Assembly: GCA_964510585.1 (NCBI GenBank)
Contig: CAZECW010000121.1
Span: 32,955 to 64,954 of the forward strand
Origin: an uncultured archaeon
GTDB taxonomy: Archaea > Asgardarchaeota > Jordiarchaeia > Jordiarchaeales > Jordiarchaeaceae
DNA: 32,000 bases
Reading direction: 5' to 3'
Below the pieces are notes generated by a model, which was not told the DNA's origin, did not search any database, and worked only from the letters and a program-made list of their open reading frames with translations. Positions within the stretch are counted from its first letter, which is position 1. The number at the start of each line of letters is the position of its first letter. The translations under genes and the position numbers were made by a program. Positions 2,117-27,999 of this stretch are shown in pieces.

Positions 2117-3210
2117 GTTAAGTCCGAGTTAAGTATATATCTACGTTTCTCATATTTATGTATTATGTTGCCGCAGAAGTTAACCTTATCTAGGAAAGAA
2201 GAGGCGGAAATCAGGAAATTCATGGCAGAAACCAAAAGCAAGGAGGAGTATAGAAGGGCGGAGGCAGTCCTTTACAAGGCGGAGGGACTCTCCTACAGAG
2301 CCATCGCAAAGAAGATGAACGCAGCATACCTCTCCGTCTACAAGTGGATCCAGAGATACAAGGAGGGAGGGGTGAAAGCCCTCCGCACCAAAACCCGCCC
2401 AGGAAAAAAGCCCAGAATAACCCCTGAACAGAGGAAAGCCATAGTTCAAACCGCCCTCCAAAGTCCCCAGGCCTTCGGCTACCTCAAAAACGAGTGGAGC
2501 GTAAGGCTCCTTGCAAAACACCTCACCCAGAAGATGGGAATCCCGATAAGCAAGACCCACGTGTGGGAAATCCTCCACGAGCTAGGCATAGCCTACAAGA
2601 GAGCTAAAGCTGTGGTTGAGAGCCCCGACCCCGAATACCCGGAGAAAGCCCGCCGAGTGGAGGGCTACAAGAAAATTGCTCCCGCGCTCCTTAAAAAGGG
2701 GTTGCAGTAGCCTTTGAGGACGAGAAGTGGCTGGAACTCAACCCCATAATAGGGTCTGGGTGGATGCCCCGAGGAGAGCAAAGGAGGGTTCCCACGCCAG
2801 GCGTTAATCGGAGGATAAACACCTTCATAACCTTGCTCTGGCCCTCCAAGAAGAAGCTCCACCATATCCGCAGGAGGAGGAGAAGCCGAGAATTCAAAGA
2901 GCACCTACAACAGCTGCTAAGGTACATAAAGAGGCACAGACTAAAGAGGATCATCCTCATCATGGACAATGCAACAATCCACCGTAGCCGGGAGACCATG
3001 CAGTTCCTTGAGAAACACGCGGAGAAAATAACCCCCTTCTATCTGCCGAAGTACGCCCCGCGGCTCAACGAGGTTGAAGGCCGGGTGAACAGACACCTCG
3101 CACGCGACGTGTGCACAAACCACAACTATCAAAGTATTGAAGACCTAGAGAAAGCAACAAGAAAATATATAAGAAAGCTCAATAGATATCACAAATAATC
3201 GGACTTAACT
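2116..3210 (+). mobile_element. IS630-family insertion sequence, apparently intact
   Basis: Terminal inverted repeats AGTTAAGTCCGA (2116-2127) and TCGGACTTAACT (3199-3210) are flanked by duplicated TA (2114-2115, 3211-3212). It encodes HTH and DDE ORFs. Confidence 0.92.
2165..3198 (+). CDS. IS630 transposase made as an orfA (HTH) / orfB (DDE) fusion by -1 frameshift
   Basis: orfA 2165-2710 has the HTH (GLSYRAIA...VYKWIQRYKEGG, RPGKKP, WSVRLLA). The -1 frame resumes at 2695 with KGVAVAFEDE...LIMDNA...LNEVE, the D-D-E triad. Slippery heptamer A_AAG_GGG at 2695-2701. Confidence 0.85.
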
Positions 3211-3277
3211 TAAATTATAAAGAACACCCTTCTTTGGGTCAGATTTGCTACATATGGTCCTGAAACATTTAATGCAC

Positions 3278-8858: not shown

Positions 8859-8995
8859 TGCTTTGTTGCACAATTTTACTTTTTCGAATGGATTTATTTA
8901 ATATTCCTAATTTTTTCAGATTAATATTGTGAAATTGCAAAAAATTCATCAAAATATATAAATAAATAAAAAAAATAAAATTATGCAACACAGCA
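8859..8995. mobile_element. MITE copy A (137 bp)
   Basis: Terminal repeats TGCTTTGTTGCACAATTTT and AAAATTATGCAACACAGCA. Flanks GAGTGACG and GACTGACG form a 7/8-matching target duplication. Homologous along its full length to 27842-27980. Confidence 0.85.
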
Positions 8996-12411: not shown

Positions 12412-12679
12412 AGAGGATCATCCTCATCATGGACAATGCAACCATCCACCGCAGCTGGGAAACCAGGCAGTCCCTTGAGAAACACGCGGAGAAAATAACC
12501 CCCCTCTTCTATCTGCCGAACTACGCCCCGCGGCTCAAAGAGGTTGAAGGCCATGTGAACAGAAACCTTGCACGCGACGTGTGCACAAACCACAACCATC
12601 AAGGTATTGAAGACCTAGAGAAAACAACAAGAAAATATATAAGGCTCAATAGACATCACAAATAATCGGACTCAACTTG
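12412..12679 (+). mobile_element. Truncated 3' remnant of the same IS630
   Basis: Closely matches 2945-3212 (AGAGGATCATCCTCATCATGGACAATGCA...AATAATCGGACT); degenerate right terminal repeat TCGGACTCAACT. Confidence 0.9.
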
Positions 12680-24368: not shown

Positions 24369-24464
24369 CCATTCATAAACAACTCACTTAGCTTGAATCG
24401 TATTCCTCTAACATAGAGAAAAGGCACTTGCTTATAAGACTTGTTAAAAAATTGTTGTTTCAGG

Positions 24465-25018
24465 TGCTGTGTTGCACAATTTTTATTTTTTCAATTTTTT
24501 TTATCTAATGATGAATTTTTTATAATCGCCCTTAAATAAGAATTTTGTGGCTGGCTGACCCTTTTTTAGGTTTGGTTCCAGGGCTTTGGAAGCATCCCAG
24601 TACACCGCCCACAAAAACCAAAAAATAACCATAGCCAGAACATCCTTCAGGGCCTCCAAAGGATTCCTTCGCCTCAAACTTCTACACACCCTAAATGCTA
24701 CAATGTAGAACCTCAGGTTATCCTTACACACACCTTCCGTGGCAAGCAAACCACACCCGGATTATAAGAGCCTCGGCTCTCACACACATTCACGTGAGCC
24801 TCACCCCTGACATACTCGCCCGCCGAGTGGTTAACCCCCACATGCCGGTATCCTAACTCATCCAGGAAAGAGTAGGAGGTAAAGGCATCCGTGTAAACCG
24901 TGGAATCCTTAGAACGTGTATAAAAATGTTCAAAAAAAGGGGCGCTCTGGAGGCACACCAGTAGGAAGCTACAACCAAAAACTAGCATCTGGAGTACTGT
25001 TTGAATATATGGTTTCAA
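24465..25018 (-). mobile_element. IS1595-family (ISXO2-like) remnant: frameshifted transposase 3' part plus one terminal repeat
   Basis: STVYTDAFTSY...GYRHVGVNHSAGEYVRGEAHVNVCE, then after a frameshift GVCKDNLRFYIVAF, is the IS1595 DDE signature. Terminal repeat TGCTGTGTTGCACAATT at 24465. Confidence 0.8.
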
Positions 25019-26595: not shown

Positions 26596-26790
26596 AATTC
26601 ACGCAGAAACACTAGTTGACACTCTCCGCGACTAAAGTCGCGGGGATTCTTCTGACTCATCGGGAGCCTTAGGAAGCAATGGGTGTGCCATCACCCAGTT
26701 AACACGCCCTTCCCTCAGGGGAACGGCGTCTGTGTTGGTACCCTCATGGGGGCTGCGTCTTGTTTAGCCCCTTAAAGCCCAAGCTAAACC
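26596..26790 (-). ncRNA. Candidate TnpB omega-RNA (reRNA): scaffold plus flanking guide
   Basis: A GC-rich, structured ~170-nt segment ends in the right-end hairpin and TCAA, where TnpB reRNAs map. The predicted guide is the downstream flank CTAGTGTTTCTGCGTGAATT. Boundaries are inferred. Confidence 0.45.
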
Positions 26791-26892
26791 CTTCAGCTAC
26801 CAACAACTATTGGTATACCCTACTTTCAAATAAGCTTTTTGGCGATTCATCCCCACGACTTGAAGTCGAGGCTATCTCGCCAAGGTTTTGTG
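26616..26892 (-). mobile_element. Non-autonomous IS200/IS605 derivative with no tnpA or tnpB
   Basis: On the minus strand the left-end hairpin reads GGCGAGATAGCCTCGACTTCAAGTCGTGGGGATGAATCGCC. The right end reads GAAT-CCCCGCGAC-TTTA-GTCGCGGAG-AGTG-TCAA, matching the IS608-type GAAT guide and TCAA cleavage site. The left boundary is uncertain by a few nt. Confidence 0.8.
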
Positions 26893-26914
26893 ATAAGTGA
26901 ACACTCATTCATAT

Positions 26915-27841: not shown

Positions 27842-27980
27842 TGCTGTGTTGTATAATTTTACTTTTTCTAATAAATTTATTTAATTTTCTTAAATTTTTT
27901 CAAATTAACAATGTGAAATTGCAAAAAATTCAAAATAATATATAAATAAATTAAAAAAATAAGAATTATGCAACACAGCA
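27842..27980. mobile_element. MITE copy B (139 bp)
   Basis: Terminal repeats TGCTGTGTTGTATAATT and AATTATGCAACACAGCA. Perfect 8-bp target duplication CAACTCGA at 27834-27841 and 27981-27988. Confidence 0.92.
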
Positions 27981-27999
27981 CAACTCGACCACTTATTTT

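What the first reader, a model, noticed from the sequence alone, without database searches (positions are those of the whole stretch)
26596..26897. Protein-less IS200/IS605 mini-element retaining a probable omega-RNA: a mobile stand-alone guide-RNA cassette
The ~277 bp keep both TnpA-recognition hairpins, including an IS608-like right end (GAAT...hairpin...TCAA), and the structured 3' region where TnpB guide RNAs are encoded. All tnpA and tnpB coding sequence is gone. An A/T-rich AAAAAGCTTATTTGAAA just inside the left end could act as a promoter. If transcribed, it would load a TnpB made elsewhere with the guide CTAGTGTTTCTGCGTGAATT, which targets its own empty site next to a TAM (candidates TTAT or TCAC). 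Every new insertion would create a new guide.
Basis: partly seen in the sequence, partly recalled or inferred. Interest (0 to 1): 0.75.

Follow-up and report, generated by a model that had tools for sequence, protein, structure and literature searches.

The report
Gene-less IS605 mini-transposon with guide-RNA scaffold
This 274-base stretch is a worn copy of a protein-free jumping element found at least 81 times in a hot-spring Asgard archaeon; it keeps both transposon ends and the folded RNA region that normally guides the TnpB nuclease, a kind of element already described in bacteria and haloarchaea.

Summary
Window 26616-26889 (minus strand, 274 nt) is one copy of a protein-less IS200/IS605 mini-transposon of the IS608 type (a PATE).

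- **Copy number:** the 3.78-Mb genome holds at least 81 left-end and 69 right-end junctions. 91 of its 434 contig ends lie inside the element.
- **Ends:** copies have sharp ends. TTAC sits outside the left end in 86 of 91 junctions, and the element ends in TCAA.
- **Parent:** full-length elements with the same ends occur in the genome. They carry a Y1 tnpA and tnpB fragments at contig ends.
- **Make-up:** the element is about 83 nt of left end, including the TATA-like box upstream of tnpA, fused to the last ~190 nt of tnpB plus right end. That is where TnpB guide RNAs (omega RNAs) are encoded.
- **Structure:** a covariance model of this 3' module matched 29 of 151 genomes of the phylum. Of 33 base pairs, 29 show changes on both sides, and 13 matches sit at the 3' end of full tnpB genes.

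Transcription and TnpB loading were not shown. This copy is decayed: TCAC instead of TTAC, ATAG instead of AAAG, a changed TATA-like box and a 3-nt deletion in one stem.

Published work already describes PATEs that encode omega RNAs. This scan also found the family earlier on other DNA of the same genome.

The parts
26616..26889 (-). Whole mini-element (PATE), 274 nt, read from left end (26889) to right end (26616)
   Evidence: Alignment of 29 full copies with flanks shows sharp ends. It is 92.5% identical to the 275-nt family consensus.
26890..26893 (-). Target / left cleavage site (TAM position). It reads TCAC here and TTAC in the family.
   Evidence: TTAC in 86 of 91 left-end junctions; this copy is the only TCAC.
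26872..26875 (-). Left guide tetranucleotide position just 5' of the left hairpin. It reads ATAG here and AAAG in the consensus, as in IS608.
   Evidence: Alignment. IS608 rule from PMC3201880.
26851..26871 (-). Left-end subterminal hairpin (core CGAC-TTCA-AGTCG). It is weakened here by one deletion and one substitution relative to the consensus CCCCCGAC...GTCGTGGGG.
   Evidence: The first ~60 nt of the element are 90-96% identical to the left end of the tnpA-bearing elements.
26824..26840 (-). The first 11 nt (AAAAAGCTTAT) are shared with the full-length element.
   Evidence: Promoter activity was not tested.
26807..26817 (-). TATA-like box position. It reads TATACCAATAG here, TATATAAATAG in the family consensus and TATATTGATAG in the parent, where it lies ~25-30 nt before the tnpA start codon.
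   Evidence: The genome encodes TBP, so it uses archaeal TATA promoters. Function is inferred.
26616..26733 (-). 3' structured module (omega-RNA-like scaffold): stems P_A 26729-26704, P_B 26697-26680, P_C 26679-26647 and P_D 26643-26626
   Evidence: Covariance model R1 scores 99.6 bits, E 2.6e-21. The minimum-free-energy fold of a typical copy reproduces the four stems. This copy has a 3-nt deletion in the 3' strand of P_C.
26626..26643 (-). Right-end subterminal hairpin CCGCGAC-TTTA-GTCGCGG, preceded by GAAT (26649-26646)
   Evidence: It is nearly identical to the right end of the tnpB-bearing contig ends C8, C45, C54 and C152.
26616..26619 (-). Terminal TCAA (right cleavage site), 10 nt 3' of the hairpin foot as in IS608
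   Evidence: All copies end in GTGTCAA. IS608 geometry from PMC3201880.
26596..26615 (-). 3' flank that would form the guide if the element is transcribed through its right end
   Evidence: Flanks differ in every copy. The guide role is inferred only.

Best explanation
The stretch is a decayed copy of a high-copy, gene-less derivative (PATE) of an IS608-type IS200/IS605 insertion sequence in a hot-spring Asgard archaeon.

Shown:
- The family arose by internal deletion of a tnpA-tnpB element.
- It keeps ~83 nt of left end and the last ~190 nt (tnpB 3' end plus right end).
- It lies 3' of TTAC, has no target duplication in the aligned flanks, and ends in TCAA.
- A Y1 TnpA with HUH and Tyr motifs is encoded by full-length elements with near-identical ends.

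Inferred:
- The high copy number at 95-98% identity to the consensus points to recent mobilisation, with that TnpA acting in trans.
- The retained tnpA TATA box drives transcription through the four-stem scaffold and ~16-20 nt into the flank.
- This would give an omega RNA whose guide matches the element's own empty site.
- TnpB made by full-length elements would load it and cut the TTAC-flanked donor joint after excision.
- Recombination with a sister copy would then restore the element (the homing/retention model of Meers et al.).

This particular copy has a mutated cleavage site (TCAC), a mutated left guide (ATAG), a weakened left hairpin, an altered TATA-like box and a 3-nt deletion in stem P_C. 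It is most likely an immobile relic.
For: - **Copies and ends:**. There are 81 PATE-type left-end junctions and 69 right-end junctions; TTAC occurs in 86 of 91 left-end junctions, counting 10 that belong to full-length elements.
- **Parents:** a left end plus tnpA (Pfam Y1_Tnp, E 9e-35) plus the tnpB N-terminus sits on C169, C7 and C162. A tnpB C-terminus (Cas12f1-like TNB domain, E 2.5e-18) plus right end sits on C8, C45, C54 and C152.
- **Homology to the tnpB 3' end, with compensatory changes:** GTGCC..GGCAC becomes ACGCC..GGCGT, and GGAGG..CUUCC becomes GCUUC..GAAGC.
- **Covariation:** model R1 hits 29 of 151 genomes of the phylum. In 44 aligned sequences 90.6% of cells are paired, against 69% in shuffles and 44-54% when partners are slid. 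29 of 33 pairs change on both sides.
- **Link to tnpB:** 13 of 33 hits other than copies of this family (32 outside G000) lie at the 3' end of full-length tnpB. Most of the rest are tnpB-less remnants.
- **Fold:** a typical copy folds into the same four stems, z = -3.5.
- **Promoter context:** the genome encodes TBP. The TATA-like box lies at leaderless distance from the tnpA ATG in the parent.
- **More kept than TnpA needs:** IS608 needs only ~45-56 nt of right end for TnpA complexes (PMC3201880), so the ~105-190 nt kept here exceeds that.
- **Literature:** it states that PATEs often encode omega RNAs used in trans (PMC10055086).
Against: - No transcript has been demonstrated.
- The complete TnpB of the closest (C8) type is not assembled. 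Residues ~203-285 are missing and the C7 copy is frameshifted.
- The element's scaffold is a mosaic. It is 78% identical to the C8 type over the last ~97 nt, and its P_C stem resembles the C81 type. Which TnpB, if any, binds it is unknown.
- The covariation was measured across the IS family and on a model-fitted alignment. It shows that the module is structured in the family, not that it is under selection inside the PATE.
- Within the PATE family, variable sites are not significantly enriched in unpaired positions.
- The TnpB clade lacks the canonical RuvC-II glutamate. This is a known 'rearranged' type, but it has not been tested here.
Confidence: 0.78

Rival explanations
1. An inert TnpA-mobilised PATE. 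The 3' scaffold is only a passive leftover of the deletion that made the element. It is not transcribed or not used by TnpB, and copy number reflects TnpA activity alone.
For: - There is no transcript evidence.
- Copies are 95-98% identical to the consensus, so selection on the scaffold cannot be seen within the family.
- Different PATE families of the genus keep different lengths, ~105 nt in G003 against ~190 nt in G000.
- In Haloquadratum, 52-bp terminal-only PATEs also seem mobile (PMC3119063).
Against: - The amplified family keeps all four covarying stems intact and sits behind a conserved TATA-like box.
- The only terminal-only mini-element found in this genome (contig C157) is single-copy.
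- TnpA needs far less of the right end than is kept.
Confidence: 0.2
2. A mobile promoter or regulatory cassette. The outward-reading TATA box mainly changes expression of the gene downstream of each insertion, and the structured RNA is a by-product.
For: - 27 of 29 full copies lie where no long ORF spans the reconstructed empty site, so they are mostly intergenic.
- One copy abuts a start codon.
Against: - Orientation relative to neighbouring genes was not analysed.
- The module is shared with tnpB-bearing elements across the phylum, which ties it to the transposon rather than to host genes.
Confidence: 0.02

Closest known systems
PATEs (palindrome-associated transposable elements) of IS200/IS605: Haloquadratum walsbyi (PMC3119063) and the PATE-like elements of Geobacillus stearothermophilus, said to often encode omega RNAs used in trans (PMC10055086)
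   Same: It has no ORF and no terminal inverted repeats. It has near-terminal palindromes and no target duplication. It derives from an IS605-type element by internal deletion. It forms a homogeneous high-copy family and retains the tnpB 3' end and omega-RNA region.
   Different: The host is an Asgard archaeon from hot springs. The copy number is very high for a 3.8-Mb genome (at least 81). The tnpA TATA-like box is fused ~25-100 nt upstream of the scaffold. Expression and TnpB use were not tested here.
IS608 of Helicobacter pylori (PMC3201880)
   Same: The target and left cleavage site is TTAC and the right cleavage site is TCAA. AAAG and GAAT guide tetranucleotides lie 5' of the hairpins. 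The spacing is ~18-19 nt at the left end and 10 nt at the right end. The transposase is a Y1 TnpA with tnpB downstream.
   Different: There is no sequence similarity beyond these short motifs. The host is archaeal. The TnpB belongs to a clade with Gly in place of the RuvC-II Glu. The element studied has lost both genes.
TnpB omega RNA / reRNA (for example ISDra2, ISGst elements) and stand-alone omega RNA loci
   Same: It sits at the 3' end of tnpB, overlaps the ORF end and stops at the right-end boundary. It is a multi-stem scaffold. A possible loop-to-tail pseudoknot lies next to the guide. The guide would come from flanking DNA and the TAM would equal the transposon target site.
   Different: It matches no curated Rfam family. 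The scaffold sequence is specific to this archaeal clade. RNA existence, ends and TnpB binding are inferred only.

Membership tests
IS200/IS605, IS608-type ends | Insertion 3' of a fixed tetranucleotide (TTAC) that stays outside the left end, with no target duplication | tested here: met
   TTAC in 86 of 91 left-end junctions, and the flanks are unrelated on the two sides. The window copy itself has TCAC, a one-base deviation.
IS200/IS605, IS608-type ends | Subterminal imperfect palindromes at both ends, no terminal inverted repeats, and a right end terminating in TCAA ~10 nt 3' of the hairpin foot | tested here: met
   Geometry compared with PMC3201880.
IS200/IS605, IS608-type ends | Guide tetranucleotides 5' of each hairpin (AAAG left, GAAT right) | tested here: met
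   The consensus has AAAG and GAAT. The window copy has ATAG at the left and GAAT at the right, so the left guide is not met for this copy.
IS200/IS605, IS608-type ends | A Y1 (HUH) TnpA in the genome on elements with the same ends | tested here: met
   PF01797 hits on C7, C169 and C162. The C169 protein scores E 9e-35 and has HLH and SY motifs. Its left end is 95% identical to the PATE left end over 60 nt.
PATE | Too short to encode a transposase, and derived from an IS605-type element by loss of the core | tested here: met
   274 nt with no meaningful ORF. Alignments to the left end and to the tnpB 3' end plus right end of full-length elements.
PATE | Multiple dispersed copies with defined boundaries (evidence of mobilisation) | tested here: met
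   At least 81 insertions at 95-98% identity to the consensus.
TnpB omega RNA | Encoded at the 3' end of tnpB and ending at the right-end boundary | tested here: met
   The same module lies at the 3' end of 13 full-length tnpB genes in other genomes, and at the four G000 contig ends that carry a tnpB C-terminus and right end (C8, C45, C54, C152).
TnpB omega RNA | Conserved secondary structure supported by covariation | tested here: met
   29 of 33 pairs have double-sided changes, and 90.6% of cells are paired against 44-54% in slid controls. Caveat: the alignment was fitted to the model. For the pseudoknot 98.5% of cells can pair, but there is no double-sided change.
TnpB omega RNA | A transcript that extends ~16-20 nt past the right end | tested here: inconclusive
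   Only one metatranscriptome run held anything. It gave two low-depth contigs of a related element crossing a right end, with no strand information and possible DNA carry-over.
TnpB omega RNA | A cognate, intact TnpB in the same genome | tested here: inconclusive
   The C8-type TnpB is present only as contig-end fragments (residues 1-202 and 286-392). The C81-type TnpB is an intact 424-aa ORF. Intact relatives exist in congeneric genomes.
TnpB omega RNA | Binds TnpB and directs TAM-dependent DNA cleavage | not testable with these tools
   Needs biochemistry or an interference assay.
Rfam RNA families | Match to a curated covariance model | tested here: not met
   No hit at gathering score in the window. 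Only a chance-level ROSE_3 hit (E 2.9) appeared at a relaxed threshold.

The most novel reading that the evidence does not exclude
The scaffold-bearing PATE is a working 'parasite of a parasite' that hijacks both TnpA and TnpB in trans. Its own promoter makes at least 81 different omega RNAs. TnpB-mediated homing would then explain why this form reached high copy number, while a terminal-only derivative stayed single-copy. That would make it a natural genome-wide guide library in an Asgard archaeon, served by a TnpB with a rearranged RuvC site.
Probability: 0.3. Interest if true: 0.5.

Novelty: new member of a known kind. Interest (0 to 1): 0.3.

Why it matters
It gives a clear, high-copy archaeal (Asgard) example of guide-RNA-only IS200/IS605 derivatives, with a covariance model for the scaffold that works across the phylum. 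It explains about a fifth of the assembly breaks in this MAG. It offers a compact TnpB, omega RNA and TTAC-TAM system from a thermophile that could be tested. It does not change the current picture of TnpB biology, because the principle is already published.

Tried and rejected
- **Rfam:** scans at gathering and relaxed thresholds found no relevant family.
- **Public sequencing runs:** no RNA holder was listed for the window stretch. For a typical copy, one metatranscriptome run held 2 of 28 words. Laying it gave two low-depth contigs of a related element that cross a right end. They carry no strand information and may be DNA, so I do not use them as evidence.
- **Model R1 on 73 haloarchaeal tnpB loci:** no hits, so the module could not be linked to the experimentally seen haloarchaeal sotRNAs/omega RNAs.
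- **Within-family test:** I asked whether variable sites avoid paired positions. By my count from the per-position table, 7 sites are unpaired and 5 paired, which is not informative.
- **Extra genomic targets of the 81 guides:** 12-mer seed matches occur at about the chance rate. Two full 16-nt matches are duplicated right flanks behind other TTAC sites (C12/C154, C62/C75). They are not empty sites of the same locus.
- **Full-length parent with the PATE-type 3' region:** none found inside contigs. All partial right-end matches of PATE type (at least 86% identical and longer than the terminal ~40 nt) stop at contig ends.
- **Gene disruption:** the window copy does not interrupt an ORF.
- **Strand:** folding the whole element on both strands does not tell the strands apart.
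- **Not used:** Complex prediction and structure prediction, because no protein-protein claim is made.

Full report
**What is there.** Read on the minus strand, window 26889 -> 26616 is a 274-nt element with a GC-rich hairpin near each end.

The element is not unique. blastn against the window's own 3.78-Mb, 217-contig assembly gives 137-141 matches. Of these, 29 are full-length and about 90 run into contig ends. An alignment of the 29 full copies with 40-nt flanks shows unrelated flanks and sharp ends. The element starts AAAACCTTGGCGAG just after TTAC and ends GGAGAGTGTCAA.

Counting junctions gives 81 PATE-type left ends and 69 right ends. TTAC lies outside the left end in 86 of 91 cases. 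91 of the 434 contig ends lie inside the element, so it causes about a fifth of the assembly breaks. Most positions differ from the 275-nt consensus in under 2% of copies, which points to a recent burst.

**Organism.** The genome encodes TBP. The nearest TnpB relatives are in Hadarchaeota MAGs and haloarchaea. DNA runs holding the window are hot-spring metagenomes. Earlier notes of this scan call it an Asgard archaeon of the Jord/Freyarchaeia group; I did not verify the class.

**Parents.** Pfam Y1_Tnp and TnpB domains are present in the genome.
- On contig C169, TTAC is followed by a left end 95% identical to the PATE over 60 nt. Next comes a 129-aa TnpA with the HLH and SY motifs (Y1_Tnp, E 9e-35), then the N-terminus of a TnpB that runs off the contig. 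C7 and C162 are similar.
- Contigs C8, C45, C54 and C152 begin or end with the TnpB C-terminus (TNB domain, E 2.5e-18), followed by a right end whose last ~36 nt are almost identical to the PATE.
- TnpB residues ~203-285 of this type are not assembled, and the C7 copy is frameshifted.
- A second, more distant element on C81 has a degenerate tnpA and an intact 424-aa TnpB.
- Congeneric genomes hold intact relatives.

**Anatomy of the mini-element.** The first ~83 nt equal the parent's left end. This part includes AAAAAGCTTAT and a TATA-like box: TATATTGATAG in the parent, about 25-30 nt before the tnpA ATG, and TATATAAATAG in the PATE consensus. The remaining ~190 nt align, with divergence, to the last ~190 nt of the parent, meaning the tnpB 3' end plus right end. 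So some tnpB-derived sequence does survive, as non-coding remnant.

A congener (G003) has an independent ~205-nt PATE family from the same kind of element. It keeps the left end, the TATA-like box and only the last ~105 nt.

The end geometry matches IS608 as described in PMC3201880. TTAC lies ~18 nt before AAAG and the left hairpin. GAAT precedes the right hairpin, and TCAA lies 10 nt after its foot.

**The 3' module is a conserved structured element tied to tnpB.** Comparing the PATE with the C8-type, C81-type and other lineages shows four stems kept through different sequences:
- P_A is a two-part hairpin (GTGCC..GGCAC against ACGCC..GGCGT against ATCCC..GGGAT).
- P_B reads UGGGUG..CACCCA, with GGGCUG..CAGCCC in one lineage.
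- P_C reads UUGGAGG..CUUCCAA against UUGCUUC..GAAGCAA against CGGUUGU..ACAACCG.
- P_D is the right-end hairpin.

I built covariance model R1 on this structure. It matched 29 of 151 sampled genomes of the phylum, in 13 of 52 genera.

On the 44-sequence model-fitted alignment, 90.6% of cells form standard pairs. The figure is 69% in column shuffles and 44-54% when partners are slid by 1-3 columns. 29 of 33 pairs show changes on both sides, and all seven helices vary. Because the alignment is fitted to the model, these figures lean towards the structure. The slid controls and the many pair types still make the structure convincing.

Thirty-three hits are not copies of this family (32 of them lie outside G000). 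Of these, 13 lie at the 3' end of a full-length tnpB, and most of the rest carry only a C-terminal tnpB remnant or none. A typical PATE copy folds by itself into the same four stems (z = -3.5).

For a loop-to-tail pairing (UGGCA of the P_B loop with UGUCA before the last A), 98.5% of cells can pair. It shows only one-sided changes, so it is compatible with a pseudoknot but not proven.

IS608 TnpA complexes need only ~45-56 nt of right end. The ~105-190 nt retained here is therefore more than transposition should need. This is the region where TnpB guide RNAs are encoded in characterised systems.

**Mechanism.**
Shown:
- a TTAC-targeting, gene-less IS608-type element that reached high copy number, which implies mobilisation in trans;
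- a cognate Y1 TnpA present in the genome;
- retention of an intact, family-wide covarying scaffold behind a conserved TATA-like box.

Inferred:
- transcription from that box through the scaffold into the flank;
- loading of the RNA by TnpB made elsewhere;
- cleavage of the TTAC-flanked empty site, followed by recombinational restoration (model of PMC10055086).

In this genome 74 of 76 right-end termini keep the scaffold. One terminal-only mini-element (C157) and one solo right end (C136) are single-copy. This fits a retention advantage, but it is only one genome.

**This copy.** It is 92.5% identical to the consensus, the second lowest of the 29 full copies. Its deviations are:
- TCAC instead of TTAC;
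- ATAG instead of AAAG, at the same position of the guide/cleavage pair, and not a Watson-Crick rescue;
- a shortened left hairpin;
- TATACCAATAG in place of the TATA-like box;
- a 3-nt deletion plus a C-to-U change in P_C.

It still scores 99.6 bits with R1. It lies in a non-coding stretch downstream of a membrane-protein ORF and interrupts no gene. It is most likely a relic that can no longer be excised.

**What remains open.** No transcript is shown. No Rfam family matches. The only RNA-library signal is two low-depth, unstranded contigs of a related element. Which TnpB would recognise the PATE scaffold is unknown. The scaffold is 78% identical to the C8 type over the last ~97 nt, with a C81-like P_C. 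The TnpB clade has Gly in place of the RuvC-II Glu (VGDL/LGRL). This corresponds to the 'rearranged catalytic site' groups described in PMC10691335, whose activity I did not test.

**Novelty.** PATEs were defined in Haloquadratum, including one that retains part of the tnpB C-terminal region (PMC3119063). Meers et al. state that PATEs often encode omega RNAs that must be used in trans by TnpB from other elements (PMC10055086). This scan has already followed up other copies of the same family in this genome and reached the same conclusion. My tests agree with those notes. The finding is real and well formed, but it is a new member of a known kind, and this copy is one of the least intact.

Noticed in passing
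L057:776-2047 (G000 contig C81) and L060:141-1421: The TnpB proteins of this clade have Gly where the RuvC-II catalytic Glu is expected (IVLGRL / IAVGDL). The RuvC-I Asp, the zinc-finger cysteines and the RuvC-III Asp are present. This fits the 'rearranged catalytic site' TnpB groups of PMC10691335.
   Followed up: partly
L057:773-2446 (G000 contig C81): A second IS605-type element has a degenerate tnpA (HUH motif lost) in the same frame as an intact tnpB, giving one 557-aa ORF. The tnpB frame runs through the right end and stops at a TGA formed with the flank, right after TCAA.
   Followed up: partly
G000 contig C157 (minus strand, near 51717) and contig C136:4663-4700: C157 holds a terminal-only mini-element of ~50 nt, a left-end hairpin fused directly to the right-end tail. 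C136 holds a solo 36-nt right end. Both are single-copy, unlike the scaffold-bearing family.
   Followed up: partly
L032, L041, L043, L047, L049 (genome G003, same genus): There is an independent ~205-nt PATE family from the same kind of IS. It consists of the left end, the TATA-like box and only the last ~105 nt of scaffold. G005 has a PATE of the C81 type (L033).
   Followed up: partly
window 27842-27981, 8859-8995, 24464-24526: A second, unrelated A/T-rich ~140-nt mini-element has terminal inverted repeats (TGCTGTGTTGYAYAATT ... AATTATGCAACACAGCA). The genome gives 43 blastn matches, 17 of them full-length and many 99% identical.
   Followed up: partly
window 2945-3211 and 12412-12678: Two ~270-nt direct repeats, 93% identical over their two longest blocks. 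Their sequence translates to a DDE-transposase-like fragment (…ILIMDNATIHR…). It is probably two copies of another insertion sequence.
   Followed up: no
G000 contigs C62:12659 vs C75, and C12:8956 vs C154:2124: The right flanks of two PATE copies recur elsewhere directly behind another TTAC(AA), with unrelated left flanks. They are probably paralogous sequence or another TTAC-targeting element, not empty sites.
   Followed up: partly
whole genome G000: 91 of 434 contig ends lie inside this PATE, and full-length IS copies are broken at contig ends. Repeat content is a main cause of fragmentation of this MAG.
   Followed up: yes
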